A DNA stretch of 64,000 nucleotides from Candidatus Hydrogenedens sp. (lineage in GTDB: Bacteria > Hydrogenedentota > Hydrogenedentia > Hydrogenedentales > Hydrogenedentaceae), in assembly GCA_049968235.1 (NCBI GenBank), contig JBMFRC010000014.1:1-64000 (forward strand), in the 5' to 3' direction. Shown piece by piece: positions 5,953 through 53,850 of the stretch (within the stretch, counting starts at the first letter, position 1; every line of letters begins with the position of its first letter). The notes under the pieces are model-generated. The model had not been told where the DNA came from and ran no database searches. It saw only the letters and a list, made by a program, of their open reading frames with translations. A program made the position numbers and the translations under genes.

Positions 5953-6031
<79 letters not shown>

Positions 6032-8346: not shown

Positions 8347-8415
8347 ATAAAAAAGTGATAAAAGAAAACCTTTGATGTATAATATATAAAAAAACAATAA
8401 AGGAGATGTTATTTT

Positions 8416-10662: not shown

Positions 10663-10822
10663 AAGAAAAAGAATACTTCAGATGAAATCTTTTTATATGA
10701 CCGCACTCTCGTCTTAATTTTAAAAAATTATAGACAAATTTTATAAATATATAAATAATTATAATTTAGCAAATAATGTAAAATGAGAAAGTCTAAGTCT
10801 AACAAAACTTTACAAAAAGGTA

Positions 10823-10851
10823 TTGACAAATTTTCGTTTTTAGTGTATAAT
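10823..10851 (+). promoter_or_regulatory. Consensus sigma70 promoter (TTGACA-N17-TATAAT) driving the sugar isomerase-like gene
   Basis: Exact TTGACA at 10823-10828, 17-nt spacer, exact TATAAT at 10846-10851. The gene starts at 10917 with an AAGGAGGAG RBS. Confidence 0.55.
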
Positions 10852-10916
10852 TCCTTCTATTTATGAAATCATATAATTAGTTTATAGTCCTTAAAAATTA
10901 AGATAAGGAGGAGAAA

Positions 10917-11894: not shown

Positions 11895-11955
11895 AAACAT
11901 TCTTCAAATAAATATAAAAAATCTATTCAAGGAGAGATAATCTCCTTGAATTTTT

Positions 11956-12834: not shown

Positions 12835-13124
12835 AATATTTATTCTTATAAATATATCACCAATTTTCCAATCTAATTATACAAATACCTGTAATAAAAA
12901 TCAATATTATTAAAATAAATTTATTTCATAATTAATAATATTGATAATTGTTTGCTGTAGTTCGATTTCCTTTTTCTTATGATGAAAATTTTATCTATAT
13001 TATGTATATGTTATATAAATAAAGAATACAAAACTTATTTTTACAAACTATAAAATGGAAGCGTTAATTGGTATTTCGTTAAAATATTAAACATATTATA
13101 AAGAACGAACAAAGGAGTTTTATT

Positions 13125-13955
13125 ATGGGCGAAGCAATAGTAAACTGGCAGGAAGCAAAAAAATATACAGAAATTTTCTATCACAAAGCAGAAGGAATAT
13201 CGAAAATTACCATCAATCGTCCTCATCGTCGGAATGCCTTTACTCCGATTACCTTAGATGAAATTAGTGATGCTCTTGCAGATGCGAGATTTGACCCTGC
13301 AGTAGGAGTGATTATTCTTACCGGAGAAGGAGAAAAAGCGTTTTGTTCCGGAGGTGACCAGAAGTTCCGCGGAGAAGCCGGGTATATAGACCCACGCACA
13401 GGACATCATCGTTTAAATGTGCTGGATTTATATCGTCAAATACGAACCTGTCCAAAACCTGTTATAGCAATGGTTGCAGGATATGCTATTGGTGGTGGAA
13501 ATATTTTAGCAATGGTATGTGATTTGACCATTGCTGGAGATAATGCCATATTTGGACAAACAGGGCCCAAAGTCGGTTCCTTTGATGCAGGTTATGGTTC
13601 TGCCCATTTAGCGAGAATTGTGGGGCAGAAAAAAGCACGGGAGATATGGTTTCTATGCAAGCAATACAATGCTCAAGAAGCATTACAGATGGGATTGGTA
13701 AACACAGTTGTGCCTCTGGAAGAGTTAGAAGCCACTACGGTAGCATGGTGTCGCCAAATATTAAAGATGTCTCCAATTGCTCTTCGCTGTATCAAATCTG
13801 CAATGAATGCAGATGAAGATGGACAGGCAGGGCTAACTGAATTAGCAGGCAACGCTACCATGCTTTTTTACATGACCGAAGAGGGACAGGAAGGGCGTAA
13901 TGCCTTTCTTGAAAAAAGAGAGCCTGATTTTTCAAAGTTTCCACGAAAACCATGA
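13125..13955 (+). CDS. menB: 1,4-dihydroxy-2-naphthoyl-CoA synthase
   Basis: Crotonase-fold MenB signature across the full length (…[24 protein letters not shown]…[21 protein letters not shown]…), with the C-terminus …FSKFPRKP as in characterised MenB. It ends on TGA. Confidence 0.92.
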
Positions 13956-20110: not shown

Positions 20111-22180
20111 ATGCAAAGGTTAAAATTGGTAATCGGTTTTCAATTATGTCTGTGGCTCTTTGTAATTGGAGCATGGGCTGATGCGCCCGCAAACTACACA
20201 TGGACTAATGCCCCCGGAGGTGCATTTACTGCGTCAAGCGTGGATTTTGAAGCATGGATGACCAAATTGGCTCAATTCCAGTTTGGTGGTGATGCTGTCT
20301 TTGATTTCTTAGACCCGACGGATGCAGATAATAATGACAATGGTGTGCTGGATGTATATGAGTTTGCTTTATTAACTGCAATTTGCAACGATACTTCACA
20401 TCCGCTACACGACACAATTCATGAGGCTTTCAAAGCAAACTGGACTGCATTTCAATCTCATCAAGGTGCATTAGTTAATTCACTTGCCCCCGCATTGGCG
20501 ATTATAGGTGGTGCGTATGCTACATTAGGCGATGGCGATTATGGCAGGACACCTGCTGCATGGTTCTCAGGCTCCTGGGGCTCGGTAGCGGAAATTCTAT
20601 ATGGATTATCCTCCTACGGTTCTTCATGGGGTGCAGGTCAACCTGCGGAACCACCGTATGTTCGTCGTCAATCATATATGTCTATGTGTGGCGACTTTGA
20701 TAGTGATGGCGTAAAGAACATTAACGAATGGTACGGGCAGAGTGGCAATGTAGAAAACTATGTTTCTGCCGCAATGAACCCATCAGTTACCACAAGTGGA
20801 GAAGACCCGAACGGTGTCTGTGAGACAGGTTTACGCTGGGGCAAAACTTATTTTTATAATCCTGCCAATCAACATGTATATTGGTTACAACCCTATAGTT
20901 TGCCATGGGAAATTGCTGAACAGGTTGCTACGGAACATAGCCTTGTGAACAATTCAAGTGAAACTATAGCCATTCCAGGTCATCTGGTAACTATAGATGA
21001 TTCTGCAGAAAATGCCTGGATTATGAGCACGGTGTATCCACAAATCAATAGTAACATGTGGATAGGTGCCACAGATAAACTTACAGAAGGACAGTGGATT
21101 TGGATTGGAACAGGTGAACAATTCTGGCAGGGTGCTGCCGATGGAACTCCCGTTGGTGGGAAGTATACGAATTGGAATTCAGGAGAACCTAATGATTCCA
21201 GTGGTGAAGATTATGGCGAAATTACCAGTAGTGGCGGTTGGAATGATAATAAAGCCAGTGCTACTCGTAGAGGTTTAGTTGAGTTCCCGAATGCATATCC
21301 CGATAGCAATACCAACGGTATTCCTGATTACTGGGAGCAATTCTCAGGAGGAGGTGGTGGCGAAGGAGAAGGAACCGTTGAAGGGACACCTGAAGGTACA
21401 CCCGAAGGAACACCGGAAGGTGAAGCACCGTGTGAATTTGAAGGAAGGATAAATGACTCAACCTTAGGACAGGGTCCATTATTGGCTCAGACTTTAGAAA
21501 GTAATAGTTCGCAATTAAATGCCTTGCTAACTGCTTTAGATATGTTGAGTTGGTTCAACTGGGATATCGAGTATTTAGAAGAAGTTATTGCCATGATTCG
21601 TCCATATCCCGGAGATGGATTGAAAGATTCATGGAGTATGGCATTGTTAGAATACTGCATCTGCCATCCCAATTTCCGCACCGATTTAAATATCCCGGCA
21701 GATTTTGATTACAACAAGACATTATTCGAGCAAGACTGCACATGGTTAGCCACAAATGTTGACCCAATATTCGCTGTATTACCACCGATGGTAGGTGATG
21801 TAATGGCAGGGCTATTAGGTTCCAGTGTAGAAATGCGAACCACATGGAATGCTATATTCCTTGCATTAACAGGTGGTGCAGTCGGATTGCCGAGTGTAAA
21901 TAACTACCGTATCTATGGAATGGCAAAGGCAAATGATGGTGCTATTGCAGCAAATGGTGACCTCGATGGTGACGGTAAGACGAACCTGCAAGAAGCACAG
22001 GAAGTCATTGCCGTGGGCGGTGGTATGGAATTATTTGTAAAAGCAGCCACAGATAAGACCAACATGTGGCCCGGCAATCCCGAAATTCCTGTCGGTGCAA
22101 TTGCCATTATTGGTGCAATGACAGGTGTAATTGTGGCTGGAAGTTCATTAATCTTAATTCGTCGACGTAAACAACTATAA
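20111..22180 (+). CDS. Secreted C-type-lectin-domain protein with a GTPEG repeat linker, DxDxDG calcium-binding-like motifs and a C-terminal PEP-CTERM-like anchor
   Basis: Signal peptide (…FVIGAWA). CTLD hallmarks (…[23 protein letters not shown]…[31 protein letters not shown]…). [13 protein letters not shown] linker. [15 protein letters not shown] motif. C-terminus …[34 protein letters not shown] (PE-P-like motif, TM helix, basic tail). Confidence 0.7.
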
Positions 22181-22194
22181 TAACTTATTATTAT

Positions 22195-22223
22195 GGCACC
22201 CGGTTGCTGTGATACCGGGTGCC
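22195..22223 (+). terminator. GC-rich hairpin between the lectin gene and the pseudopilin gene (weak or absent U-tract; candidate attenuator/terminator)
   Basis: 10-bp perfect stem ggcacccggt/accgggtgcc with a 9-nt loop, followed by aaaatgtggttt. Confidence 0.3.
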
Positions 22224-22265
22224 AAAATGTGGTTTAATTTTAATATTAATGGAGGATATAGGCTT

Positions 22266-23159
22266 ATGAAACAGAGAAAAGGCTTTACTCTCATTGAACT
22301 TCTTGTTGTTATTGCCATTATTGGCATACTTGCGGCAATTTTATTGCCAGCACTTGCTCGTGCTCGTGAGGCAGCGCGTCGTTCTTCCTGTCAGAATAAC
22401 TTAAAGCAGATAGGTTTGTCTATGAAGATGTATGCTAACGAGGCAAAAGGAGAACGCTTCCCTACAGTAAGTATAGCAGGTGGAGATACTTGTGATGATA
22501 TTCGCATTGATTTTATGTGGTGGGGACCGCAATTGTATCCAGAATATTTATCAGACCTGAATGTTAATGTATGCCCATCCGATTCTGATGGTAAAAGGGC
22601 ATATACCGATGGTCGCTGGCATTGCGGTGGGAATCCGGGTAATCCTATTTGCCCTTGCAGAATTGATGCTCTATCTTATATCTACATTTGCTGGACATTA
22701 CGCGAACAGGATTATATGATGCCTGGTATGGACCCCAATGACCCAAATGTCTCTTCCTTCCAATTACCTATTAATTATATTAACCCGTTCTTCGTACAAT
22801 TCCTTATGGACCTGGTAGCTGCGGTAAATGCTTCTCCAGATACAAGTACAGCACTGGGACTTGTAGATAAAGATTTTACATACAACACAGCAGATTCTCA
22901 AGGTAAGATAACCATGTATCGACTTCGTGAAGGAATAGAACGATTCCTTATCACTGACATTAACAATCCTGCTGCAAGTACACAAGCACAAAGTGAAATT
23001 GCTTTCTTTTTCGATGGTATAGAAACAACTCCATCAGACTTCAATCATATTCCTGGTGGTGCTAATGTGCTTTATATGGATGGGCATGTGCAATTTGTTC
23101 GTTTCCCAACAGACCATCCTGCTAATAAAGTATTTGCTGCAATTATTGGAAATGTCTAA
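22266..23159 (+). CDS. Prepilin-type N-terminal cleavage/methylation-domain protein with a C-terminal H-X9-DG motif (DUF1559-type pseudopilin-like)
   Basis: [51 protein letters not shown]… N-terminus and C-terminal …[27 protein letters not shown] upstream of the ATG at 22266. Confidence 0.85.
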
Positions 23160-23190
23160 TTAGATAAGATAAAAAATAATATTCTATATT

Positions 23191-23229
23191 GAAGACTGCT
23201 TCTATAAAAAGAAGCAGTCTTTCTTTTAA
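23191..23229 (+). terminator. Rho-independent terminator after the pseudopilin gene
   Basis: Stem gaagactgcttc/gaagcagtctt with an 8-nt A-rich loop, followed by ttcttttaat. Confidence 0.6.
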
Positions 23230-23282
23230 TATTGTTACTATGTTAAAATAAACATGTGAGATATAATAAAGGTAAATAATTT

Positions 23283-24215
23283 ATGCAATGTAACCAAAGG
23301 GAAAAAGTGGAAGATATTCTTTCAGAACAGGCTATTGAAATTATCAAGAATCTTGATGTAGGTGCTTATGTTGTTTCCCCCGAAAGAGAGATTCTTTTCT
23401 GGAATGATAAAGCGTCTGAAATAACGGGTTATAACGACAATGAGGTGGTAGGTTCTTTATGTCAGGACAATCTATTGCGTCATGTGGATGACAACGGAAC
23501 AGAACTGTGTATTCACGGATGTCCTCTATTAGAAACAATTAAAGATGGACAAATCCGTAAGACTCGTGTTTATTTGCGACACAAAGCAGGCTATCGAATG
23601 CCTGTAAAAGTAGAGACTTTACCCATTAAGATAAACAATGAAATTAAAGGTGCTGTTGAATTTTTTCAGGAGGATACTGAAGAACTTAATTTATTAGAAG
23701 AACTTCGCAGAACCCGTGAAAAAGCCTTAATCTGTCCTCTAACCGAAATTGGAAATCGCAGGTACACGGAGCAGATGCTTAAAGACCGTTTAGAAGAAAT
23801 GAATCGGTTAAAAAGTAGTTTAGGTTTGTTCTTTATTGATATCGATGATTTTAAGCATATCAACGATACTTATGGACATCCCATAGGCGATATCGTGTTG
23901 AAAATGGTTGCCCGAACCCTTGTAAGTATAATGCGTCCGTATGATTTTGTAGGACGATGGGGAGGCGAAGAAATTGTTGCAATAGTACCTCATGTAAAAC
24001 AGGAAGAATTGTTTGAATTGGGAGAGAGATTCCGTAAATTGATTTCAGCCAGTAGTATAAAAACAATGCAGGGACGATTAGGTGTTACAGTCTCTATCGG
24101 TGCAACCGTTTCTTGTGTAGAAGATACAGTTTATTCTATTATTGAACGGGCAGATAGAATGATGTATGAAAGCAAACGTAACGGTAAAAATAGGGTTACT
24201 ATTTATTCCTCTTAG
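23283..24215 (+). CDS. PAS-domain diguanylate cyclase (GGDEF; active-site GGEEI)
   Basis: N-terminal PAS-like region; GGDEF domain with …RWGGEEIVAIVPH… and …FFIDIDDFKHINDTYGHPIGD…. Confidence 0.85.
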   Translation: MQCNQREKVEDILSEQAIEIIKNLDVGAYVVSPEREILFWNDKASEITGYNDNEVVGSLCQDNLLRHVDDNGTELCIHGCPLLETIKDGQIRKTRVYLRHKAGYRMPVKVETLPIKINNEIKGAVEFFQEDTEELNLLEELRRTREKALICPLTEIGNRRYTEQMLKDRLEEMNRLKSSLGLFFIDIDDFKHINDTYGHPIGDIVLKMVARTLVSIMRPYDFVGRWGGEEIVAIVPHVKQEELFELGERFRKLISASSIKTMQGRLGVTVSIGATVSCVEDTVYSIIERADRMMYESKRNGKNRVTIYSS

Positions 24216-32689: not shown

Positions 32690-33595
32690 TTAATCACCAC
32701 CGGTTTGACTATCCAGGAAACAAGCCCATAAACGAGAAACAGGGTTTGTTCCAGGATAACGCACAAACTCCACATGTCCGTCCATATATAAAACATTTCC
32801 GCCACCGGGAACATGATTCATATATTCGGGTTGGGAATTAACATCATCGGACAATATCCATACTTCACTTTGGGCTTTGTTGGAAGCAGCAGGATTGTTA
32901 ATATCTGTTATCAGGAATCGTTCAATCCCTTCGCGAAGCCGATATATTGTAACAGTTCCTTGTTTTGCATCGGAGTCCAACAAACTAGCGTCTCCATTAT
33001 TTGCCCAGTTTGCATAACCATTGTTGATTATCGTTAAAATGGCGGTTAAGAAGTCTGGGTTGAAATAGTTCATTGCATTAGTTTCATTAATTGCCGGGTC
33101 ATTAACATCCTGTCCGGGTAGAACCATATCCTCATCCATTATTGCCCAACCATAATAATTGTATGATTCCGCACTGAAACGACATGGATTTTTCTCATCC
33201 AGATTGGGGTCAGCATTACGGTTCCACCAACCATCTACAGTAACATGTGTTCGTGCAGTCGAATCCGATGGACATATTAAGATATTTGTATCTGTTAAAT
33301 ATTCTGGATACACAGCCCGTGCATTGAAAAATGCTTCAATAGAACCCCGCCTTTTGCAATCATCAGGCATAGTACGGTCCCCCTGCCATATTTGAATTGA
33401 GGGGTATCTTTCCCCTTTCGATTCATTTGAATACATCTTGAACACCAAACCTAATTGTTTAAGATTGTTTTGACAGGAAGACCGCCGTGCCGCTTCACGG
33501 GCACGAGCCAGCGCTGGTAAAAGGATAGCAGCAAGTATTCCGATTATCGCTATCACAACCAGCAGTTCAATGAGAGTAAAACCTTTTTTTAACAT
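32690..33595 (-). CDS. Prepilin-type N-terminal methylation-domain / H-X9-DG (DUF1559-type) pseudopilin-like protein, paralog 2
   Basis: [50 protein letters not shown]… and C-terminal …[18 protein letters not shown]; paralogous to 22266..23159. Confidence 0.85.
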
Positions 33596-35820: not shown

Positions 35821-37017
35821 TTAACGAGGCACATAATAGCGTTCGCCTGTGCCGACTACTTCAATGGCAATTCCGTGTGTTTTAACATCCAATAATCGAA
35901 CGGATGTGCCGGGAATCATTTCCCCTACGTATACCTTTGTGAGATTAATAATGGCTAATCCATGTGGATTTTTAGGACCTGCTTCGCGAAGAACATTTAG
36001 TTTCATATCATCCAACCCTAAACGAGTTCTATCCGATGTTCTCAATACTGGTAGTCTTGTCATATCTACGGCTTCTTCAACTTTCGGTTTAGGTGATGAT
36101 AATGCCTGCTGAAATTGTTCAGGTTTTAATGAAGGAGGTGGTTCTAAATCTTTTGTAATTACAGGTGGAGGTGGTGTATTTTGTGTTGATGTAGCAGGTT
36201 GAGAAGCAGATGACGCTTGTAAAGTGGCAGAATTTGTTAGTTCATTATTTTTTGTAATATTTTCATTAGGAGAGGGAAGCACGGATGAAGAAGTTTCCCG
36301 GAGTAATTCCGTGGGAGTTTCTTTTTTTATTTCTGGAACCGTAGGATGAGGTGTTTCCGTTTTTTCTTCTTTTATAATTGGAGGTGACGATTCGTGAGGT
36401 ATATTTTTAGCAACCTGAACGGGCGGTTCGGGAGTATTGGTAGGCGGTTCGTCAGGGGCGGATACTTCAGGGGTCTTTTCTAAGGGGGGTGTTTTTGCTT
36501 TTTCTAATTTATCAGAAGGATTTGTAGTAGGTGGAGATGTATGAGGTTCAGATACAATTGTTTTCTGTTTTACTTTATTGGCTGTATTGTCAGGGGTAGG
36601 GGGGGGTGATGTTGTTTCTTTATTTTCTGTTGTTATTTCCTGATTCTGTGTATCTTTCTCCGATTGACTTGGAGGGACTGCTTCTTCTGTTGTTTTCTGA
36701 TTTAATGAGATTGTCTTTGTCGGAATAGTTGAAATTGTGTTTTTTGCAATTTGTGTTTTTACGACCCATAAAGATGCTGATATAGAAATAATACTTATTA
36801 CAATAACGAATATAACCACTCCGGTTATAATGAATTTGGGTGATATAGTGAAAGTTGCCGTATCTTGAAGTGGAATAGGTTTTTCCGGTTTTGCTATTGC
36901 AGAGATAGAAATAGGTTCTGATAATTCTTGTTCCTCTTCCTCTTCTTTTTCGAGTAGTTTTAACTGTCGTTGTTTTTCTTCCTCGAGTTTTTTTAGTGCA
37001 TCGAGGATGGAACTCAT
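35821..37017 (-). CDS. Single-pass membrane protein with a long Pro/Thr/Ser-rich linker and a conserved C-terminal domain; possibly GspB-like (T2SS-associated)
   Basis: N-terminus MSSILDALKKLEEEK, one TM helix, about 250 aa of low-complexity P/T/E/K-rich linker, and C-terminal …GLAIINLTKVYVGEMIPGTSVRLLDVKTHGIAIEVVGTGERYYV. The family assignment is from memory only. Confidence 0.3.
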   Translation of the reverse strand: MSSILDALKKLEEEKQRQLKLLEKEEEEEQELSEPISISAIAKPEKPIPLQDTATFTISPKFIITGVVIFVIVISIISISASLWVVKTQIAKNTISTIPTKTISLNQKTTEEAVPPSQSEKDTQNQEITTENKETTSPPPTPDNTANKVKQKTIVSEPHTSPPTTNPSDKLEKAKTPPLEKTPEVSAPDEPPTNTPEPPVQVAKNIPHESSPPIIKEEKTETPHPTVPEIKKETPTELLRETSSSVLPSPNENITKNNELTNSATLQASSASQPATSTQNTPPPPVITKDLEPPPSLKPEQFQQALSSPKPKVEEAVDMTRLPVLRTSDRTRLGLDDMKLNVLREAGPKNPHGLAIINLTKVYVGEMIPGTSVRLLDVKTHGIAIEVVGTGERYYVPR

Positions 37018-45352: not shown

Positions 45353-45854
45353 TTAATGAAATTTTAACATATAAAAAGTATTTTGCGGTTTTTGCAAGAA
45401 GTGGATTCCAGTTATATAAAAAGGAAAGGGACAATCCGTTGTTTGATATTAATTTCCTATTACCGTGCAATGACCATTTTCGCTATAGGAAATGTGTGAT
45501 AGTCATCATAGTTAAAAACTGAATTAACCGAAGTAAATTGATTATCCCGTCTTGTGCTTATAATCGGAACTGTGGGGATTATGATTTTTATATCCACCTC
45601 GATAAAATTCCCCTTGAAAGAATTTAATTATATTCCTATAGGAATAAAGTCAGAGCCACCATTCCAATTCATGTATGTATTATCAGTATTACTGGCAATC
45701 CATATTTTTCGTTTAGAGGAAAAGATGAATCATTTTCCTATTTATATTATACTCCCTTCTTTTATGTTGTTGTGGGTATAAACAATCGTTTTTATTTTCG
45801 TTTTGTTTTTTTTCTTTTTTAATAAATATTGATGAAAAAAGTTGCTTTTTTATA

Positions 45855-45882
45855 CTATATATAGTATTCTATATATAGTATT
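45855..45882. repeat. Exact tandem duplication of a 14-nt AT-rich unit (ctatatatagtatt x2) immediately upstream of the murC RBS
   Basis: Direct read: ctatatatagtatt ctatatatagtatt caaggatagtcgaag ATG. Confidence 0.8.
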
Positions 45883-45897
45883 CAAGGATAGTCGAAG

Positions 45898-47334
45898 ATG
45901 AACGGCGTTAAACGAAAAATACATTTTGTCGGTGTCGGTGGTATTGGAATGAGCGGTCTTGCAGAAATTCTGCTCAATCTCGGGTATGAAGTTTCCGGTT
46001 CCGATTTAAAATCCTCTGAAATTGTTGAACGACTGATAAGTTATGGATTGAAATTCTACGAGGGACATGCTTCTGAGCATGTAAAGAACGCAGGAATTGT
46101 AGTTCGTTCCGCTGCTGTTTCGGATGATAATATTGAGATAATTACAGCTCGGCAGTTGGGTATTCCTGTAATTCATCGTAGTGATTTACTTGCTGACCTG
46201 ATTCGTCTCAAACCTAATGCTATAGCGGTAGGTGGAACTCATGGTAAAACTACAACAACATCCATGATAGCCTCGTTTTTAGAGCATGCTAACATCGGTG
46301 CTACAAGCATAGTCGGTGGGATATTACACCGTAGTGGCACGAATGCTCGTTGGGGAACTGGAAATTATCTCGTAGCAGAGGCGGATGAGCATGATGGTTC
46401 GTTTTTGAGATTACATCCAACGATAGCGGTTGTAACAAGTATTGATGCAGAGCATCTGGAATATTATGGAACATTAGACCGTATCAAAAAAGCCTTTATT
46501 GATTTTTGCAATGATGTTCCATTTTATGGTTATTCAATTCTTTGTGGTGATGACCCGAATATAAAATCTATTATTCCAGAGATTGAAAGTGTCTGTATCA
46601 CTTATGGATTGGAGGAGCATTGTTCTTTGCGTGGGATAGATGTAAGAATAGAAGTTCCTCCCAAAAAAGATTCCATTCGAGATTTCCTTGCGGGGATTAA
46701 AACACGGTTTACAGTAATAAGTCAGGATGAAAAGTTAGGTGTTAAGGGGAGATTGGGGGAATTAACCATTCATACATTAGGTATTCATAATGTTCGTAAT
46801 GCTTTGGGTGCGTGTGCTGTTGGTATTTGTTTAGGACTTCGTTTCGGGTTGATTATGGATGGGCTATATCAATTTGCTGGTGTGCAAAGAAGACTTCAGT
46901 TCTGTGGAGAAGAAAAGGGCATTGCGGTTGTTGAAGATTATGCACATCATCCCACAGAAATAGCGAGTACAATGGAAGCTCTTCAATGGATAGAACCGCA
47001 ACGACTGATTGTTGTTTTTCAACCGCATCTATATAGTAGAACGAGATTTTTTGCAGAAGATTTTGCTCGTGTTTTATCGAAAGCCGATATGGCAGTTATA
47101 ACAGATATTTATGCTTCGCGTGAAACTCCTATCAATGGAGTAACTTCGGATTTGATTGTCGATTCTGCCCGAGAACAGGGAGCCAATAATGTGTTTCTTG
47201 TCCGAGATATGTATGAAGTTCCTGATTTCTTGATAAAGCATATAAAATTAGGTGATGTAGTTCTTATCCTAGGTGCTGGAAATATCAATAAAATTGCAGA
47301 ACCGCTTCTTAAAAAGATACAGGGATTAGTATAA
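45898..47334 (+). CDS. murC: UDP-N-acetylmuramate--L-alanine ligase
   Basis: …KIHFVGVGGIGMSGLAEILLNLGYEVSGSD…GTHGKTTTTSMIA…. Confidence 0.92.
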   Translation: MNGVKRKIHFVGVGGIGMSGLAEILLNLGYEVSGSDLKSSEIVERLISYGLKFYEGHASEHVKNAGIVVRSAAVSDDNIEIITARQLGIPVIHRSDLLADLIRLKPNAIAVGGTHGKTTTTSMIASFLEHANIGATSIVGGILHRSGTNARWGTGNYLVAEADEHDGSFLRLHPTIAVVTSIDAEHLEYYGTLDRIKKAFIDFCNDVPFYGYSILCGDDPNIKSIIPEIESVCITYGLEEHCSLRGIDVRIEVPPKKDSIRDFLAGIKTRFTVISQDEKLGVKGRLGELTIHTLGIHNVRNALGACAVGICLGLRFGLIMDGLYQFAGVQRRLQFCGEEKGIAVVEDYAHHPTEIASTMEALQWIEPQRLIVVFQPHLYSRTRFFAEDFARVLSKADMAVITDIYASRETPINGVTSDLIVDSAREQGANNVFLVRDMYEVPDFLIKHIKLGDVVLILGAGNINKIAEPLLKKIQGLV

Positions 47335-48159
47335 ATGGCTAAGGTTCATTTAATCACTTCACCCTTTGCAGGTGCACAGCCCAGGAAAAGACAAAATACT
47401 CGTATTCGAAAAGGAAAATCTATTTTCAGTAGTGTAATTGCAAATTTGCTTAAGATAGTATGTTTTCTGCCTCTATTTGTATTATTTTCACTTGTTTTTA
47501 GATTGGTAGATGACCCGAGATATAGAGTAAAAGAAATTCAAATTGATGGTTTGAAATACTTTTCCGATGTAGAGGTAAAAAAAAGTGTGGATATGTTTTT
47601 AAATTGTAAAATTATTTCATTAAATACGGATGATGTAAAACATAAATTAAATCAGATTCCTTTTATTGAAGATTGTTCTGTAGAAAAGGATACGAAATTG
47701 GGAAAGATTATCATTCATGTCCAAGAAATGTCCCCTTATGCTACGCTTTTTATTGATGACCAGATGTTTCTTATTTCGCATACAGGTAAAATATTAAAGA
47801 AAATAATGAATATTAAAGAAGCGGTAGGTCCCTTGATAACGGGAGTATCACGACAGAATATTTTGGAACCTGGTGCTTACATAAATGATGAAAATCTATG
47901 GTCTGCACTCAACTTCTGGTATGAATATAATCAGGTGCCTAAAAATAAAGATATAAGGATATCTGAGATTGTAATTGACACTCATGAAAATTTGAAAGTA
48001 TTTTTTGATGAAATTCCCTGCGAAACAAGGTGGAAAACGGAAAACTTAAAACGGCAAATTCAGAATTTTTCAATAGCCTTAAATAAAGTAGATATAACTC
48101 AAATTCAATGTAATGAATATATAGATATGAGATTTAATGATGATATTATTTATAAATAG
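47335..48159 (+). CDS. ftsQ: Cell division protein FtsQ/DivIB (POTRA domain)
   Basis: N-terminal cytoplasmic tail, one TM helix and a POTRA-like domain (…YRVKEIQIDGLKYFSDVEVKK…); lies between murC and ftsZ. Confidence 0.65.
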   Translation: MAKVHLITSPFAGAQPRKRQNTRIRKGKSIFSSVIANLLKIVCFLPLFVLFSLVFRLVDDPRYRVKEIQIDGLKYFSDVEVKKSVDMFLNCKIISLNTDDVKHKLNQIPFIEDCSVEKDTKLGKIIIHVQEMSPYATLFIDDQMFLISHTGKILKKIMNIKEAVGPLITGVSRQNILEPGAYINDENLWSALNFWYEYNQVPKNKDIRISEIVIDTHENLKVFFDEIPCETRWKTENLKRQIQNFSIALNKVDITQIQCNEYIDMRFNDDIIYK

Positions 48160-48223
48160 GAGAATTTGAAGTAACAAAACCATTAAAATATACACATGGG
48201 ACGCACCCCTGGAGGATAAGTTT

Positions 48224-49573
48224 ATGACACAGCGTTTTACATTACTAGATTCAGATGATTTCGGTAAAGAACCTGACAACAAAAAGGTTGGGAAGGTGAG
48301 TAATCCGGGTTCAGTGGTAGGCTTTTCAGGTGTAATGTCTGGGAAGGAAGAGTTTCCCGGTAAGAAAATCCTTATTAAAGTTTGTGGTGTAGGCGGAGGA
48401 GGAGGAAATGCCATTGAACGGATGATAGAACAAAAGATGGAAGAGGTGGATTTCATTGCTATTAACACCGATGCTCAGGCATTGTCCAAATCTACCGCTC
48501 CTATCAAGATACAGATAGGTGTAGGTATCACAGGAGGATTGGGAGCGGGTTCTCTTCCGGACTGTGGTGCTTGTGCGGCAGAAGAGGACCGGGAAACCAT
48601 CCGTGAGGCTTTGGAAGGAGCCCACATGGTTTTCTTGACTTCGGGAATGGGTGGAGGAACAGGAACAGGTGCGGCTCCCATTGTGGCTGAAATTGCCAAG
48701 GATTTAGGTGCCCTTACCGTGGCGGTTGTTACTTTACCGTTTGAGTTTGAAGGTCCGGTAAGGAAACGAAATGCGTATGAAGGGATACAGAGGTTAAGAG
48801 AACATGTAGATGCTTTAATTACCATTCCGAATGACCGTGTATCAACATTAAAAGATTTGACTGTAAAAGAAGCATTTTTGAAAGTAGATGAGGTTTTGCA
48901 TAATGGAATACGTGCAATAACTGACCTTATCAAGATTCCTCAACTTATCAATATTGATTTTGCAGATGTGCGTACAATTCTTCAAAATAGTGGGAAAGCC
49001 CATCTGGGTATTGGTTTGGCTCGAGGGGAAAAAAGACCGGAGGAAGCGGTCCTTCGTGCTATTGAATGTAATTTACTAGATACAAAAAGTGTAGTTGGAG
49101 CCAAAGGGGCTATATTAAATATTCATGGTGGTTCTGATATGAAAATGGCAGAAGTGCTTCGTGCAGGTGATAAATTGAGAGAAATGTTGGGCCCTGATGC
49201 GAATGTGATATTTGGTGCAATGATAAGTGAAGGAGAAAGAGAAGATATTTGTGTTACAGTTATTGCTGCAGGTTTTCCGGAAGAACAAAAATCAAGTGAA
49301 TTTATTCCATCCGCAATTACTAATATTACCAAAGAACAACAGGTTACTTCTTCAATATCTTCTATAAATAAAGGGGATACGCTACAGATAAAAGAGAAGA
49401 AAGAAGAAGCAATTCCTAAGGAAGAAAAGAAACCGGAGCATGGAGAAGAACTCTTTTCTAAAGAAGAATTGAAAAAAGCAAATGAAACACCACCCAAAAA
49501 AGATGAAAAACCAACTTTAGACCCGAAACCTCCATGGCTTCGTCAATTTTTTGAAAAAAACTCGGATAGATGA
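48224..49573 (+). CDS. ftsZ: Cell division GTPase FtsZ
   Basis: Tubulin signature GGGTGTG (…LTSGMGGGTGTGAAPIVA…), T7 loop, long K/E-rich linker and a conserved C-terminal peptide (…PPWLRQFFEK). Confidence 0.95.
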   Translation: MTQRFTLLDSDDFGKEPDNKKVGKVSNPGSVVGFSGVMSGKEEFPGKKILIKVCGVGGGGGNAIERMIEQKMEEVDFIAINTDAQALSKSTAPIKIQIGVGITGGLGAGSLPDCGACAAEEDRETIREALEGAHMVFLTSGMGGGTGTGAAPIVAEIAKDLGALTVAVVTLPFEFEGPVRKRNAYEGIQRLREHVDALITIPNDRVSTLKDLTVKEAFLKVDEVLHNGIRAITDLIKIPQLINIDFADVRTILQNSGKAHLGIGLARGEKRPEEAVLRAIECNLLDTKSVVGAKGAILNIHGGSDMKMAEVLRAGDKLREMLGPDANVIFGAMISEGEREDICVTVIAAGFPEEQKSSEFIPSAITNITKEQQVTSSISSINKGDTLQIKEKKEEAIPKEEKKPEHGEELFSKEELKKANETPPKKDEKPTLDPKPPWLRQFFEKNSDR

Positions 49574-49586
49574 CAAAAGGTTTTTT

Positions 49587-50699
49587 ATGAGCATATCACC
49601 TGTTCGGAACGAGTTTATAAAACTCTTACAACGCGCTATTCAAAAAGATGCTTCAGATATACATTTAAAAACGGGAAGTCCTCCTTATTTCCGCGTGAAT
49701 GGAGAATTATCCCCGATAGGTGAAGAACCTATATATCCCGAAACTATGTCTCAAATCTTGAGTGTTATGCTCAACGATGAACAGATGCGTATTTTTTCTC
49801 AACGGGGAGATTTAGATTTTGCTTTTTCAGAAAAAGGAGTAGGCCGTTTTCGTGTGAGTATTTTCCGTCAGAGGGGAACGATTTCCTGTGTAATGCGGAA
49901 AATTAAAACCCGTATTCAGACTTTTGAAGAATTACATCTTCCCCCTCAGATAGTGCGATTTACCGAGTTACAACGAGGATTAATTTTAATTGCAGGGACT
50001 ACAGGCAGTGGAAAATCAACTACCCTTGCAGCAATTGTGGAATATATTAATCAAACACGTCCGTGTCATATTATTACTATTGAAGACCCAATAGAATTTA
50101 TTCATGTAGATAAAAAAGCAGTTATCAATCAACGGGAAGTGTCTATTGATACGCATGATTTTAATTCCGCTTTGCGAACGGTGATGAGGCAGGACCCGGA
50201 TGTAATCGTGATTGGTGAAATGCGAGACCATGAAACTTTCATGGCGGCGGTAAGTGCAGCCGAAACGGGACACCTTGTTTTTAGCACCTTACATACAACG
50301 AATGTAATGCAAACGATGGATCGAATTATTGACTTTTTCCCTACCAATATGCATGACCAGGTGCGTTCTCAGTTATCACTAAATCTGAAAGCGATTATGT
50401 GTATGCGTCTTATTCCGCGTGCAGATGGGCGTGGTCGGGTGCCTGCATGTGAGATTTTATTTAATACACCGATTGTCCGAAAATTAATAAAAGAAAATCG
50501 TATGACTCAAATGGATACAGTTCTTCAACAGGGGAAGGAAGAAGGTATGCAAACTTTTAACGATAGCCTTTTTCAATTAGTAAAGGAATCTCTCATTACA
50601 CTGGATATGGCTATTGATATGTCGGACAATCCGGAAGAACTTCAGATGATGTTGCAGGGGATACGATTAAGTTCCCGACGGGGAAGTATCCTTAAATAG
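49587..50699 (+). CDS. pilT: PilT/PilU-family type IV pilus retraction (twitching motility) ATPase
   Basis: Walker A LILIAGTTGSGKSTT and the PilT-specific pattern (…IITIEDPIEF…AHLVFSTLHT…). Starts 13 nt after the ftsZ stop; an alternative start at 49551 overlaps ftsZ. Confidence 0.85.
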   Translation: MSISPVRNEFIKLLQRAIQKDASDIHLKTGSPPYFRVNGELSPIGEEPIYPETMSQILSVMLNDEQMRIFSQRGDLDFAFSEKGVGRFRVSIFRQRGTISCVMRKIKTRIQTFEELHLPPQIVRFTELQRGLILIAGTTGSGKSTTLAAIVEYINQTRPCHIITIEDPIEFIHVDKKAVINQREVSIDTHDFNSALRTVMRQDPDVIVIGEMRDHETFMAAVSAAETGHLVFSTLHTTNVMQTMDRIIDFFPTNMHDQVRSQLSLNLKAIMCMRLIPRADGRGRVPACEILFNTPIVRKLIKENRMTQMDTVLQQGKEEGMQTFNDSLFQLVKESLITLDMAIDMSDNPEELQMMLQGIRLSSRRGSILK

Positions 50700-53600
50700 C
50701 CGAATCTATGTCAGGATATTGCTCTTCTAAAAGTTCGATGAATTCTTCCAGTGTTTCAATTAGTTTTTCAAATTGGCTCTTAATATGTGTATTATCAATA
50801 TTTTTTAGGTCTTTCGTTGCTTCCTCTATTTCCTTTGTTATTTGGGCTACTCTAATTGCTCCCAAATTGCTTGTAGAACCTTTAATTGTATGTATTGTTT
50901 TATGAAAACCTTCAAAGTCTTTGTTCTCAAGTTGTATCCGTGCTTGATGTAAATAGGTAGGAATGTTCTCTAAAAATACTTTTATTACCGACAGGAGTAA
51001 ATTGTAGTCATTATCCATACGGTTTAACACCGCCGTTTTGTCAAATATAGAAGAAGATTGAGTTACGGAGTTTAATTCCGTAGAAGATGGGAAAGACGAA
51101 TATCTTTGTGCAAGTATTTTCGTAACTGTTTTTACAAGTTTTTCAGGATGTATAGGTTTGGTAAGGTAATCGTCCATTCCAATCTCTAAACAATAATTTT
51201 TCTTTTCTTCAAAAGCATAAGCAGTCAGTGCAATAATCGGAATATGATTCTCTGTTTGTGATTCCATTTCCCGTATTTTTTGGGTCGTCTGGATGCCATC
51301 CATATCTGGCATTTCTACATCCATTAGGATTAAATGATACTGCTCTTTTTGAATTTTTTCCAAAACTTCATTACCGGATTGTGCAACATCTACTTGATAT
51401 CCTCTTCGGGTTAAAAATTCCTTCATCACGGTTTGGTTTATAGGATTATCTTCTGCTAACAAAATTCGTATCTTACTAGGGGGTATATTTATGGATATTT
51501 CTTCTTTTACATCCGGGAATTCATTTGCAACTACTGTAAGAATATTGGCAAATTCATTTTTATCTGTTGGGTAAGGGATTTGAATTTTTATATCTATTTC
51601 CTTTGATGATGATAGATTTTCAGGATGGAGCAAAATTACAGGTAAATTGTATTGTGAGATTATAGATAGAATATCAGGATTATTATAGTAAGCCTTAATA
51701 TCGAGCAGAACAACGGTTTCTTTTTTATTGCCTTCCTGTTTGAAATTGTTTGTAAATTCTTCTGATGACTTAGAAACAATAAGTCGAATACCCCAGGAAA
51801 GGATATATTCTTCTATAGTTTTTATTAAACTTTTATTGTTTGTTATTAGATATAATATTTTTTGAGGTGGTACAAATTCTCCATTATCATTTAATAATAG
51901 AAGTTTTAATTCAAACCAGAATGCTGTTTTTCCATCTGCTCTTTTTTCTACACCTATTTTTCCTTTCATAAGTTCTACTAACTGCTTACTTATAGTTAAA
52001 CCTAATCCTGTTCCTTCGAACTTTTTGCCATCAGAGCGATTTGCTTGTCCGAATGCTTCAAAAATTTGGTCTATTTCAGTTTCCGGGACGCCAATACCAG
52101 TATCTGTTACTTCAAAACGAAGTATGACATTATCTATATTTTGTTTTACCACATGAATTTCAATGCAAACTTCCCCTTTATCCGTGAACTTGATAGCATT
52201 TCCTACAAGATTGATTAATATCTGTTTTATCTTATCAGGGTCTCCAATAACCTGTGTTGGAATATCTCGAGATAAAAGGCAACCTAATTCCAAATTTTTA
52301 TCGTGAGCACGTTGCCAGAACATTTGAATAACATCGTCAGCAATCTGTCGGGGAAAGAAAGGTTTGTTTTGTACAGAAACATTGCCTGCTTCTATTTTAG
52401 ATAAATTCAACAAATTGTTGAGTAGCGAAAGCAGAGCCTCCGCATTGGATAAAGCCATGCTAACGAATTGGAGATTTTGTTCCTCTTTGATACTTTCTTT
52501 AAGTAGATGCAAAGCACCAATAATCCCGTTCAGAGGTGTGCGAATCTCGTGACTCATATTCGCAAGGAAAAAAGATTTGTATTTATTCGCTATTTCTGCT
52601 TTCATTGCTAATCGGTTGGACTGTTCAATGAGTTCTAAAAGTTCTTTATTCTTTTGTTCTAATATCTCCTTTGCTTTTGTTATCTCCTGTTCCATGCGTC
52701 GGTGTTCTGTCAGGTCATTTCCAACACATAGTATTTCTATTATGTTTCCTTCTTCATCATATAGGGCTTTATTCGACCATGAAATCCATACCCGTTCTCC
52801 ATTCTTTTTCATGTTTTCATTCTCATTATTGATATATTTTTCCGGATTTTTACCAATGTCTAAAATCATTTCTAATAGATTTCTTTGATTGGAATCTGTG
52901 AGGGGAACAATAGTCCCCACGACATTTTGTCCAATCAATTCCCCGGGTTTATACATGAAAAATTGTTCTGCAAAACGGTTGATGAAAATAATCGTACCAT
53001 TGGGAGACATGCGCAAAATAATACTATTTACATTTTGCACCAATTGTTCATAACGAAGTTCTTCCTTACGCAAAAAGTCCTCAGTTTCTTTTCGCTTGAG
53101 AATTTCTTTCTCAAGGTCCATCTGTTGAATCATTACCTGATTTTGAAGGGTATTCTGCACAGAACTTAATTCTGTCAATTTCTTATCAATTTCATCAAGA
53201 AGTTCATCAATACAGAGACCTAATTGCCCGATTTCGCTCTCCGGGCGTAGATTATTTCTGATAGAAAAATTCCGGGTTGTTAATACCAAATCCATATTTT
53301 TTATTATTTGTTCTATAGGTCCTATTAGAAGATTAAACATTATCCGTAGGAGTATAAAAATACCTATGAATGAGAGCACAGAGAGTATTGTTGTTAGTAG
53401 AATTTTATTTAATAAAACAGAATATAAGGAATATGTGGGCAGATATAAGTAAAGAGTTCCAAAATTTTGAGAATTAGTTTTTAAAGGTTTTGAATACCAG
53501 ATTTTTACATCTCTATAATAAAAGCCTTCTTGAGGTAAATTACTGACTTCCGGCGACTCTAATAGAAAATCAGAAAGTTCTTTTGTAATGATTTCATCCT

Positions 53601-53850
53601 TTGATGAAATAAATAAGCCCGTCGTTAAATCATTTTTTTTGCAAGTTTTGTAGATTTCTTTTAGAGATTCAAAGTTCCTGTCTATCAGGTGTGATATAGT
53701 CAATTCAGATAAAAATTCTGCTCTTTGTTGTAATAGGTACTCTGCATTTTTTTGAAATATCCGATAATCATAAATTGTTACAATAAGAATGTAGAGTATA
53801 TGAAAAAGGATAATAGGGATTAAAAGAAATAAATATAATTTGTTCTTCAT
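50692..53850 (-). CDS. Hybrid sensor histidine kinase / response regulator (TM sensor-HAMP-PAS-HisKA-HATPase-REC-HPt)
   Basis: H-box NMSHEIRTPLNGIIG; HATPase G-boxes; REC (…ILLAEDNPINQ…MDVEMPDMDG…); C-terminal HPt (…HTIKGSTSNLGA…). Confidence 0.9.
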   Translation of the reverse strand: MKNKLYLFLLIPIILFHILYILIVTIYDYRIFQKNAEYLLQQRAEFLSELTISHLIDRNFESLKEIYKTCKKNDLTTGLFISSKDEIITKELSDFLLESPEVSNLPQEGFYYRDVKIWYSKPLKTNSQNFGTLYLYLPTYSLYSVLLNKILLTTILSVLSFIGIFILLRIMFNLLIGPIEQIIKNMDLVLTTRNFSIRNNLRPESEIGQLGLCIDELLDEIDKKLTELSSVQNTLQNQVMIQQMDLEKEILKRKETEDFLRKEELRYEQLVQNVNSIILRMSPNGTIIFINRFAEQFFMYKPGELIGQNVVGTIVPLTDSNQRNLLEMILDIGKNPEKYINNENENMKKNGERVWISWSNKALYDEEGNIIEILCVGNDLTEHRRMEQEITKAKEILEQKNKELLELIEQSNRLAMKAEIANKYKSFFLANMSHEIRTPLNGIIGALHLLKESIKEEQNLQFVSMALSNAEALLSLLNNLLNLSKIEAGNVSVQNKPFFPRQIADDVIQMFWQRAHDKNLELGCLLSRDIPTQVIGDPDKIKQILINLVGNAIKFTDKGEVCIEIHVVKQNIDNVILRFEVTDTGIGVPETEIDQIFEAFGQANRSDGKKFEGTGLGLTISKQLVELMKGKIGVEKRADGKTAFWFELKLLLLNDNGEFVPPQKILYLITNNKSLIKTIEEYILSWGIRLIVSKSSEEFTNNFKQEGNKKETVVLLDIKAYYNNPDILSIISQYNLPVILLHPENLSSSKEIDIKIQIPYPTDKNEFANILTVVANEFPDVKEEISINIPPSKIRILLAEDNPINQTVMKEFLTRRGYQVDVAQSGNEVLEKIQKEQYHLILMDVEMPDMDGIQTTQKIREMESQTENHIPIIALTAYAFEEKKNYCLEIGMDDYLTKPIHPEKLVKTVTKILAQRYSSFPSSTELNSVTQSSSIFDKTAVLNRMDNDYNLLLSVIKVFLENIPTYLHQARIQLENKDFEGFHKTIHTIKGSTSNLGAIRVAQITKEIEEATKDLKNIDNTHIKSQFEKLIETLEEFIELLEEQYPDIDSAI

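What the first reader, a model, noticed from the sequence alone, without database searches (positions are those of the whole stretch)
47335..50699. dcw cluster lacks ftsA; ftsZ is followed 13 nt later by pilT, in a genome with Planctomycete-type pseudopilins
The local order is murC-ftsQ-ftsZ with no ftsA between ftsQ and ftsZ (gap 64 nt), and the gene directly after ftsZ is a PilT-type retraction ATPase. The FtsZ retains a conserved C-terminal peptide (…PPWLRQFF), which is the motif that normally docks FtsA/ZipA, so a membrane tether should exist elsewhere. The same window carries two DUF1559 H-X9-DG pseudopilin genes typical of Planctomycetes, most of which lack FtsZ. This organism therefore combines FtsZ with Planctomycete-like pilin families (Verrucomicrobia/Lentisphaerae-like or a candidate PVC lineage). 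The ftsZ-pilT linkage is not the standard arrangement.
Basis: partly seen in the sequence, partly recalled or inferred. Interest (0 to 1): 0.5.

Follow-up and report, generated by a model that had tools for sequence, protein, structure and literature searches.

The report
Hydrogenedentota murC-ftsQ-ftsZ-pilT division operon
In this uncultured bacterium (Candidatus Hydrogenedens, not a Planctomycete relative) the cell-division gene ftsZ sits without its usual partner ftsA and is followed directly by a pilus-retraction motor gene, an arrangement kept in nearly every sampled member of its phylum; this hints at a link between division and pili but is a variant of known gene clusters, not a new system.

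Summary
murC (45898-47334), ftsQ (47335-48159), ftsZ (48224-49573) and a canonical PilT ATPase (49587-50699) lie head to tail, with gaps of 0, 64 and 13 nt. There is no ftsA, and the scan found no terminator-like site on the + strand.

The taxonomic reading is wrong. The organism is Candidatus Hydrogenedens sp., phylum Hydrogenedentota, which NCBI places in the FCB group, not PVC.

The four-gene block recurs in 13 further Hydrogenedentota-like loci with FtsZ 44-88% identical. The flanking genes differ among loci. In six loci the ftsZ stop overlaps the pilT start by 4 nt. One lineage has a different gene after ftsZ. None of the sampled loci has ftsA nearby, whereas 99 of 126 FtsZ loci from other phyla have ftsA directly upstream.

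A published survey (Pende 2021) lists FtsA on a different contig from FtsZ in three Hydrogenedentes genomes and finds no SepF. So ftsA is probably relocated rather than lost, which fits the retained FtsZ C-terminal docking peptide.

A pilT-ftsA-ftsZ operon is already known in Clostridium perfringens. This is therefore a lineage-specific variant of a known kind. Any functional PilT-divisome link is inferred, not shown. Interest is moderate to low.

The parts
45898..47334 (+). murC (UDP-N-acetylmuramate--L-alanine ligase), first gene of the conserved four-gene block
   Evidence: TIGR01082 471 bits against cutoff 335. Three Mur ligase Pfam domains. 61-93% identical in the Hydrogenedentota loci. 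The genes upstream differ between lineages (amt in the window).
47335..48159 (+). ftsQ (POTRA + FtsQ/DivIB C-terminal domain, one N-terminal transmembrane segment). Its start codon abuts the murC stop.
   Evidence: PF08478 32.9 bits and PF03799 27.3 bits, both above cutoff. Sequence. Only 23-39% identical in the more distant Hydrogenedentota loci (68% in the congeneric L002), but always in the same position.
48160..48223 (+). 64-nt ftsQ-ftsZ spacer with a strong Shine-Dalgarno sequence GGAGGA (48211-48216). No room for ftsA.
   Evidence: Read directly from the sequence. No FtsA profile hit in any frame.
48224..49573 (+). ftsZ, 449 aa. GTPase core with GGGTGTG (48650-48670). Lineage-specific N-terminal extension of about 48 aa (48224-48367).
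   Evidence: TIGR00065 381.5 bits against cutoff 295; PF00091 + PF12327. Alignment A1.
49508..49552 (+). FtsZ C-terminal docking peptide KPTLDPKPPWLRQFF (residues 429-443)
   Evidence: P436 is invariant, and the core aligns with the canonical D-[LI]-x-IPAF[ML]R[KR] of other Hydrogenedentota FtsZ.
49574..49586 (+). 13-nt ftsZ-pilT junction (caaaaggttttttATG) with a weak AAAGG ribosome-binding site. No terminator and no room for a promoter.
   Evidence: The homologous junctions are +12, +30, +16, +10 and +2 nt, or a 4-nt ATGA overlap, in relatives.
49587..50699 (+). pilT, type IVa pilus retraction ATPase, 370 aa. Last gene of the block.
   Evidence: TIGR01420 456 bits against cutoff 319. 343 bits to Aquifex PilT 2gsz. 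Walker A GTTGSGKST, Asp box, Walker B DPDVIVIGEMRD and His box are conserved at key residues in 116 orthologues.
50692..53850 (-). Convergent hybrid histidine kinase (PAS-HisKA-HATPase-REC-Hpt). Its 3' end overlaps the pilT 3' end by 8 nt. It marks the downstream boundary of the operon and is not part of it.
   Evidence: Conserved only in the Hydrogenedens-type lineages (L002, L082, L086, L176). Other lineages have other genes here.

Best explanation
This is a four-gene unit, murC-ftsQ-ftsZ-pilT, characteristic of the candidate phylum Hydrogenedentota. The window comes from a Candidatus Hydrogenedens species.

Shown:
- The four genes are co-oriented and tightly packed.
- They recur as a block in the Hydrogenedentota-like loci sampled, while the flanking genes differ among loci.
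- ftsA is absent from the block and from its flanks.
- FtsZ keeps its C-terminal docking peptide.
- The last gene is an orthodox PilT-family hexameric ATPase whose key catalytic residues are conserved in its orthologues.

Inferred:
1. The four genes are co-transcribed. In several lineages pilT is translationally coupled to ftsZ through an ATGA stop/start overlap.
2. ftsA has moved to another locus rather than being lost, and it remains the membrane tether that reads the FtsZ C-terminal peptide. A published survey finds FtsA on other contigs of Hydrogenedentes genomes and finds no SepF.
3. Placing pilT at the end of the division operon ties the supply of the pilus retraction motor to growth and division. 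Each newly formed pole would then receive its type IV pilus machinery, as in Pseudomonas, where the machinery is installed at the future division site.

This parallels the pilT-ftsA-ftsZ operon of Clostridium perfringens but probably arose independently. Step 3 is the least certain, at roughly 0.35 on its own.
For: Gene identities.

Organism: the exact FtsZ and PilT are annotated by NCBI as Candidatus Hydrogenedens sp., and FtsZ is 88% identical to Ca. H. terephthalaticus. Taxonomy.

Synteny: the block is present in L002, L003, L004, L005, L082, L086, L171, L172, L173, L174/L175, L176 and L177. Identities to the window are FtsZ 44-88%, MurC 61-93%, PilT 61-96%. Flanks vary: amt, PDH complex, PPDK, ExbB-ExbD-TPR-VWA, histidine kinase.

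Sampling from the PilT side gave 3 of 3 orthologues directly behind ftsZ.

Junctions: a 4-nt overlap in L003, L004, L171, L172, L174/L175 and L176; gaps of 2 to 30 nt elsewhere. The scan found no terminator-like site on the + strand between 45300 and 51200.

ftsA:
- There is no hit better than E = 2 in six-frame searches of the window and all Hydrogenedentota loci.
- 99 of 126 FtsZ loci from other phyla have FtsA directly upstream.
- Pende et al. 2021, Supplementary Data 2, gives FtsA on a different contig from FtsZ in UBA2224, UBA6118 and JGI 0000039-J10, with SepF NA in all five genomes.
- The same table calls FtsA absent in all Planctomycetes, which suggests (my inference) that PilM is not being mistaken for FtsA.

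The C-terminal peptide is conserved across the phylum. PilT Walker A, Asp box, Walker B and His box are conserved at key residues in 116 orthologues.

Precedents: the C. perfringens pilT-ftsA-ftsZ genes are co-transcribed (PMC6958937). The T4aP machinery is recruited to future division sites (PMC5285504; title only, the paper was not read).

Specificity: of about 155 non-Hydrogenedentota FtsZ loci, none has pilT directly downstream. Only two Clostridia-like loci, L010 and L091, have pilT within the flank, and there it lies upstream.
Against: - No transcript data exist, so co-transcription rests on spacing and the absence of a terminator.
- I could not retrieve an FtsA sequence from any Hydrogenedentota genome myself. 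The one FtsA search returned only KSB1 and Calditrichota proteins. The relocation therefore rests on a published table, and no genome of the genus Candidatus Hydrogenedens is named in that table.
- One of the five Hydrogenedentes genomes in that table has no FtsA at all, and one (CG1_02_42_14) has FtsA adjacent to FtsZ.
- One lineage (P0060; L083-L085) keeps murC-ftsQ-ftsZ but has an oxidoreductase and motA/motB after ftsZ. The pilT link is therefore dispensable or was lost there.
- Nothing in the sequence shows that PilT touches the divisome. Conserved adjacency could reflect only shared expression needs.
- Other type IV pilus genes (pilB, pilC, pilM-Q) were not located.
Confidence: 0.65

Rival explanations
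1. Neutral hitch-hiking. pilT landed behind ftsZ once in the ancestor of the phylum and has stayed because nothing disrupts it. It is an ordinary pilus retraction motor with no functional connection to division beyond sharing a constitutive promoter.
For: PilT is entirely canonical. One lineage has lost the linkage without losing murC-ftsQ-ftsZ. Promoter-like hits in the region are no more frequent than in shuffled sequence (16 against 19.8 +/- 4.5), so nothing argues for special regulation.
Against: The flanks on both sides of the block differ among loci, whereas the ftsZ-pilT junction is kept, with 4-nt overlaps in six loci. All three PilT orthologues sampled independently were still behind ftsZ. 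A second, unrelated lineage (Clostridium) has also linked pilT to ftsZ.
Confidence: 0.3
2. ftsA is truly absent from this organism. FtsZ would be tethered by something else: an unrecognised protein that reads the C-terminal peptide, direct membrane binding by the WLRQFF tail, or the lineage-specific N-terminal extension.
For: No FtsA in 64 kb, in the roughly 12 kb of additional sequence reached through two other MAGs of the same species, or within 6-10 kb either side of ftsZ in the relatives. One Hydrogenedentes genome in the published table has FtsA = NA. Hydrogenedens-type FtsZ has a diverged C-terminal peptide (PPWLRQFF instead of IPAFMRK) and an extra conserved N-terminal extension of about 48 aa.
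Against: Four of five Hydrogenedentes genomes in Pende et al. have an FtsA, and the one without is an incomplete MAG. The core of the C-terminal peptide is still the canonical partner-binding motif. Only about 2% of the genome was inspected here.
Confidence: 0.15
3. The ftsZ-linked PilT is a neofunctionalised paralogue that works in division (for example remodelling FtsA or FtsZ assemblies), not in pilus retraction.
For: Phylum-wide translational coupling to ftsZ. From established knowledge, PilT binds PilM, and PilM is the closest structural relative of FtsA.
Against: It scores as a standard PilT (456 bits to TIGR01420; 343 bits to Aquifex PilT). It keeps the AIRNLIRE-like helix (IVRKLIKEN) used in pilus retraction. 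Pilin-like genes with N-methylation motifs are abundant in the genome. No second, 'housekeeping' pilT was demonstrated.
Confidence: 0.07
4. Assembly or binning artefact: ftsA was dropped, or a chimeric join placed pilT after ftsZ.
For: The sequence comes from a metagenome-assembled genome.
Against: The same order is found on independent contigs from three MAGs of the same species and in 13 further Hydrogenedentota-like loci from NCBI, ENA, JGI and Logan.
Confidence: 0.01

Closest known systems
Canonical dcw (division and cell wall) cluster: mraZ ... murG-murC-(murB/ddl)-ftsQ-ftsA-ftsZ
   Same: murC, ftsQ and ftsZ are in the canonical relative order and orientation, tightly packed. ftsZ is last of the division genes.
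   Different: Only the distal three genes are here: amt, kefB-like, secDF and tgt lie upstream instead of murG/ftsW. ftsA is missing, and so are murB and ddl. A non-dcw gene, pilT, is appended and in several lineages translationally coupled to ftsZ.
Clostridium perfringens pilT-ftsA-ftsZ operon (PMC6958937)
   Same: A PilT retraction ATPase is in one operon with ftsZ. The synteny is conserved among related species. The reason for the link is unknown.
   Different: The order is reversed: pilT is downstream of ftsZ here and upstream of ftsA there. ftsA is present there and absent here. The host is a diderm FCB-group candidate phylum rather than a Firmicute. The PilT proteins of the Clostridia-like loci L010 and L091 are only 41-44% identical to this one. 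I read that as independent origin, but no phylogeny was built.
FtsA-less FtsZ loci of Actinobacteria and Cyanobacteria (SepF-dependent tethering; PMC8178401)
   Same: ftsQ lies directly next to ftsZ with no ftsA between, and FtsZ retains its C-terminal peptide.
   Different: Those phyla have SepF and no FtsA anywhere. The published survey finds no SepF in Hydrogenedentes and finds FtsA at another locus.
PilT of Aquifex aeolicus, Pseudomonas aeruginosa and Geobacter (PDB 2gsz, 3jvu, 6ojx)
   Same: Same length, same domain order and all ATPase motifs; 308-343 bits by phmmer.
   Different: Genomic context only. In the model organisms pilT sits with pilU or in pilus clusters, not in a division operon.

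Membership tests
FtsZ (TIGR00065 equivalog) | Score above the curated equivalog cutoff; tubulin-type GTPase domain plus FtsZ C-terminal domain | tested here: met
   381.5 bits against cutoff 295.2. PF00091 169.6 bits; PF12327 85.1 bits.
FtsZ (TIGR00065 equivalog) | Tubulin signature GGGTG[ST]G and conserved C-terminal partner-docking peptide | tested here: met
   GGGTGTG at residues 143-149. C-terminal peptide KPTLDPKPPWLRQFF at residues 429-443, aligned with IPAF[ML]R of relatives; P436 invariant.
PilT/PilU type IVa pilus ATPase (TIGR01420) | Score above the curated subfamily cutoff | tested here: met
   455.9 bits against cutoff 319.1. The next best family (TraJ) scores 154 bits.
PilT/PilU type IVa pilus ATPase (TIGR01420) | Walker A, Asp box, Walker B and His box of secretion ATPases | tested here: met
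   GTTGSGKST (137-145), IITIEDPIEF (162-171), DPDVIVIGEMRD (203-214), ETGHLVFSTLHT (226-237). Key residues are 99-100% conserved in 116 orthologues.
PilT/PilU type IVa pilus ATPase (TIGR01420) | PilT-specific AIRNLIRE helix (distinguishes PilT from PilU and PilB) | tested here: inconclusive
   The equivalent is IVRKLIKEN (296-304). The R/L/I/E pattern is kept, but positions 1 and 4 vary among orthologues. The best PDB matches are PilT, with one PilU close behind.
PilT/PilU type IVa pilus ATPase (TIGR01420) | Drives pilus retraction; works with a PilB/PilC/PilM-Q machine | not testable with these tools
   No other pilus machinery genes are in the window; only DUF1559 pseudopilins.
Canonical dcw cluster | ftsA between ftsQ and ftsZ | tested here: not met
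   The spacer is 64 nt. The FtsA profile gives E >= 2 everywhere in the window and in all Hydrogenedentota loci. It is met in 99 of 126 loci from other phyla.
Canonical dcw cluster | murG/ftsW/murD/mraY etc. upstream of murC | tested here: not met
   Upstream genes are amt, a CPA2 K+ antiporter, secDF and tgt.
Clostridial-type pilT-ftsA-ftsZ operon | pilT co-transcribed with ftsZ | not testable with these tools
   Spacing (13 nt; 4-nt overlaps in relatives) and the absence of a terminator support it, but there are no transcript data.
Clostridial-type pilT-ftsA-ftsZ operon | Gene order pilT-ftsA-ftsZ | tested here: not met
   The order here is ftsQ-ftsZ-pilT with no ftsA.
   All close FtsZ and PilT relatives that carry an organism name are Candidatus Hydrogenedens or Hydrogenedentes, apart from L003, which is labelled only 'FCB group bacterium'. 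NCBI lineage: FCB group.

The most novel reading that the evidence does not exclude
In Hydrogenedentota the PilT hexamer is a physical accessory of the divisome. It might dock on FtsA (the structural twin of its usual partner PilM) or on the extra conserved motifs of the FtsZ linker and N-terminus. Pilus retraction and pole maturation would then be mechanically coupled to cytokinesis. The same coupling would have evolved independently in Clostridia, making pilT-ftsZ linkage a recurrent and so far unexplained module.
Probability: 0.12. Interest if true: 0.7.

Novelty: new variant of a known kind. Interest (0 to 1): 0.35.

Why it matters
This gives a second, phylogenetically remote and probably independent case of a pilus retraction ATPase wired into the ftsZ operon. 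It is conserved in nearly all sampled members of a candidate phylum and in several lineages translationally coupled to ftsZ. That strengthens the idea, raised but left open for Clostridium perfringens, that type IV pilus dynamics and cytokinesis are functionally connected. It also documents that Hydrogenedentota have pulled ftsA out of the dcw cluster while keeping the FtsZ docking peptide, which is useful for surveys of divisome evolution. Finally, it corrects the assumption that DUF1559 pseudopilins indicate PVC ancestry. None of this overturns current models.

Tried and rejected
1. A direct search for a Hydrogenedentota FtsA failed. The seed was the FtsA next to the most similar non-Hydrogenedentota FtsZ (L006, which turned out to be KSB1). 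All 120 listed hits were KSB1 or Calditrichota. The tool lists only the closest relatives, so this says nothing about absence.

I used it only as a background set.

3. Sequence beyond the window ends was reached on contigs of two other MAGs of the same species, through glnA and groEL. It holds purA, rpsD and other genes, but no ftsA.

4. The Megrian et al. 2022 dcw-cluster paper is not held in the library.

5. Literature searches for Hydrogenedentes combined with FtsA or type IV pili gave nothing relevant.

6. Rfam and tRNA scans of the window found only tRNA-Pro at 5953-6031.

7. The promoter scan gave no more hits than shuffled sequence, so no promoter is claimed.

8. I considered and rejected three ideas: an ftsA remnant in the 64-nt spacer (too short, and no profile hit); an assembly artefact (independent assemblies agree); and horizontal transfer of the Clostridial arrangement (the order is reversed, and PilT is only 41-44% identical to the Clostridia-like linked PilTs).


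Full report
**1. What is there**

- murC, 45898-47334: TIGR01082, 471 bits.
- ftsQ, 47335-48159: POTRA_1 + FtsQ_DivIB_C. Its ATG abuts the murC stop.
- A 64-nt spacer carrying GGAGGA at 48211-48216.
- ftsZ, 48224-49573: TIGR00065, 381.5 bits.
- A 13-nt spacer.
- A PilT-family ATPase, 49587-50699: TIGR01420, 456 bits.
- A hybrid histidine kinase (50692-53850) converges on pilT and overlaps its 3' end by 8 nt.

Upstream of murC lie an ammonium transporter, a CPA2 antiporter, secDF and tgt. So only the distal piece of a dcw cluster is present here. The consensus scan finds no terminator-like site on the + strand between 45300 and 51200. Promoter-like matches are no more frequent than in shuffled sequence.

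**2. Who it is**

The exact FtsZ and PilT proteins occur in NCBI MAGs annotated Candidatus Hydrogenedens sp.. The best species-level genome match is Ca. Hydrogenedens terephthalaticus, with FtsZ 88%, PilT 96% and MurC 93% identical. NCBI taxonomy places the phylum Hydrogenedentota in the FCB group.

The two DUF1559/N-methyl pseudopilin genes are real (22209-23159 and 32690-33595). They do not indicate PVC ancestry.

**3. Is the arrangement conserved?**

Yes. The block murC-ftsQ-ftsZ-pilT is found in the following loci.
- L002, L003, L004, L005: genome collection.
- L082, L086: looked up from FtsZ homologues.
- L171, L172, L173: also from FtsZ homologues.
- L174/L175, L176, L177: looked up from PilT homologues, 3 of 3 positive.

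Identities to the window are FtsZ 44-88%, MurC 61-93%, FtsQ 23-68% and PilT 61-96%.

Genes outside the block differ among loci. They include amt, pyruvate dehydrogenase, PPDK, ExbB-ExbD-TPR-VWA, flagellar genes and the histidine kinase. So the four genes behave as a unit.

ftsZ-pilT junctions:

| Junction | Loci |
|---|---|
| 4-nt ATGA overlap | L003, L004, L171, L172, L174/L175, L176 |
| +2 nt | L177 |
| +10 nt | L173 |
| +12 nt | L002 |
| +13 nt | window |
| +16 nt | L086 |
| +30 nt | L082 |

One lineage (P0060; L083-L085) keeps murC-ftsQ-ftsZ but has an oxidoreductase and motA/motB after ftsZ.

Among about 155 FtsZ loci from other phyla, none has pilT directly downstream. Only two Clostridia-like loci (L010, L091) have a pilT within the flank, and there it lies upstream.

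All hits in the PilT homologue list that carry an organism name are Hydrogenedentota.

**4. ftsA**

I built an FtsA profile from 54 ORFs found directly upstream of ftsZ in other phyla. Four representatives were checked against Pfam and carry PF14450 + PF02491.
- The profile finds nothing better than E = 2 in six-frame translations of the window or of any Hydrogenedentota locus.
- The same profile finds FtsA directly upstream of ftsZ in 99 of 126 loci from other phyla. Four more have it a few kb away, and 23 have none in the flanks.

A missing ftsA at the locus is therefore a minority state in general, and it held in every Hydrogenedentota locus sampled here.

I could not search whole genomes. 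My one attempt to fish out a Hydrogenedentota FtsA returned only KSB1 and Calditrichota sequences.

The published survey of Pende et al. 2021 (PMC8178401, Supplementary Data 2) lists five Hydrogenedentes genomes.
- SepF is NA in all five.
- FtsA is on a different contig from FtsZ in UBA2224, UBA6118 and JGI 0000039-J10.
- FtsA is adjacent to FtsZ in CG1_02_42_14.
- FtsA is NA in one genome.

The same table gives FtsA = NA for every Planctomycete. I take this to mean that PilM is not being mis-scored as FtsA. The most economical reading is that ftsA was moved out of the cluster, not lost.

**5. FtsZ features**

All Hydrogenedentota FtsZ proteins keep a C-terminal peptide built around an invariant proline.
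- Most lineages have the canonical D-[LI]-x-IPAF[ML]R[KR].
- The Hydrogenedens-type lineages, including the window, have KPTLDPKPPWLRQFF.

This is the motif that docks FtsA, ZipA and SepF in model organisms (established knowledge). Its retention fits an FtsA encoded elsewhere.

Two further features were noticed and are not explained.
- A conserved N-terminal extension of about 48 aa in Hydrogenedens-type FtsZ.
- A conserved ELF[PS]xEE motif in the linker.

**6. PilT**

The protein is a textbook PilT.
- It scores 343 bits to Aquifex PilT (2gsz) and 308-342 bits to other solved PilTs.
- Walker A, Asp box, Walker B and His box are present, and their key residues are 99-100% conserved in 116 orthologues.
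- An AIRNLIRE-like helix (IVRKLIKEN) is present.

Nothing suggests loss of ATPase activity or a new domain.

**7. Interpretation**

Shown:
- a conserved, tightly packed four-gene block;
- no ftsA in the block;
- a retained FtsZ docking peptide;
- an orthodox PilT.

Inferred:
- co-transcription and translational coupling;
- FtsA acting from another locus;
- co-expression serving to supply the retraction motor in step with division and new-pole formation.

The last point is by analogy with two things. One is the recruitment of the type IVa pilus machinery to future division sites in Pseudomonas aeruginosa (PMC5285504; title only, the paper was not read). The other is the pilT-ftsA-ftsZ operon of Clostridium perfringens, whose authors state that the reason for the linkage is unknown but implies a link between pili and the divisome (PMC6958937).

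The Clostridia-like linked PilTs are only 41-44% identical to this one, and the gene order is reversed. I therefore infer that the two linkages arose independently. No phylogeny was built to test this.

The main rival is neutral hitch-hiking. It is weakened, though not excluded, by the preservation of the junction while the flanks differ among loci.

**8. Verdict**

This is a lineage-specific variant of the dcw cluster with a known precedent for pilT-ftsZ linkage. Interest is moderate to low (0.35). The most novel reading not excluded is a physical PilT-divisome coupling that evolved twice. I give it about 12% probability, and it would be of real interest if true.

Noticed in passing
window 48224-48367 (FtsZ residues 1-48): Hydrogenedens-type FtsZ carries a conserved N-terminal extension of about 48 aa (motifs RFTLL, residues 4-8, and GFSGVM, residues 33-38). 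It is absent from the FtsZ of other Hydrogenedentota families and from model FtsZs. Function unknown.
   Followed up: partly
window 49445-49471 (FtsZ residues 408-416): A second short linear motif, ELF[PS]xEE, is conserved in the otherwise variable FtsZ linker about 20 residues before the C-terminal peptide in most Hydrogenedentota FtsZ. It could be a docking site for a further partner.
   Followed up: partly
window 50692-53850 (-): A hybrid histidine kinase (PAS-HisKA-HATPase-REC-Hpt) converges on pilT with an 8-nt overlap of the 3' ends. The kinase-eda-argG-argF-argD block downstream is shared with L002, L082 and L086, but not with more distant members of the phylum.
   Followed up: partly
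window 20111-24215: Three adjacent + strand genes: a C-type-lectin-domain protein (20111-22180), a DUF1559/N-methyl pseudopilin (22209-23159) and a PAS-GGDEF diguanylate cyclase (23283-24215). Pilin-like gene next to a c-di-GMP gene; no functional link tested.
   Followed up: no
window 35821-37017 (-) and 10090-10662 (+): Two sizeable ORFs (398 and 190 aa) have no Pfam match at E <= 0.001.
   Followed up: no
L171-L173, about 8350-13200: In three Hydrogenedentota-like lineages the murC-ftsQ-ftsZ-pilT block is followed on the same strand by ExbB/MotA-like, ExbD, a large TPR protein and VWA-domain proteins.
   Followed up: no
L083/L084 11352-14035: The only lineage without pilT after ftsZ has a GFO/IDH/MocA oxidoreductase followed by motA/motB stator genes in that position.
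   Followed up: no
L086 9143-9954: ftsQ is split into two ORFs (160 + 82 aa) in this 1.43-Mb MAG contig. This is probably a frameshift in that assembly rather than biology.
   Followed up: no
L005 11214-11281: The ftsZ reading frame runs 47 nt past the pilT ATG in this high-GC relative. This is either a real long overlap or a frameshift near the ftsZ 3' end.
   Followed up: no
L010 3408-4442 and L091 1567-2577: Two Clostridia-like loci have a PilT homologue 3.4-5.5 kb upstream of ftsZ on the same strand. This may correspond to the published Clostridial pilT-(x)-ftsA-ftsZ arrangement.
   Followed up: partly
window 45353-45897: The 545-nt intergenic region between amt and murC has no ORF of 80 aa or more and no Rfam hit. 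The P-II gene that usually follows amt is not found here; in a MAG of the same species (L087) a P-II gene lies just upstream of glnA, which in the window starts at 59208.
   Followed up: no
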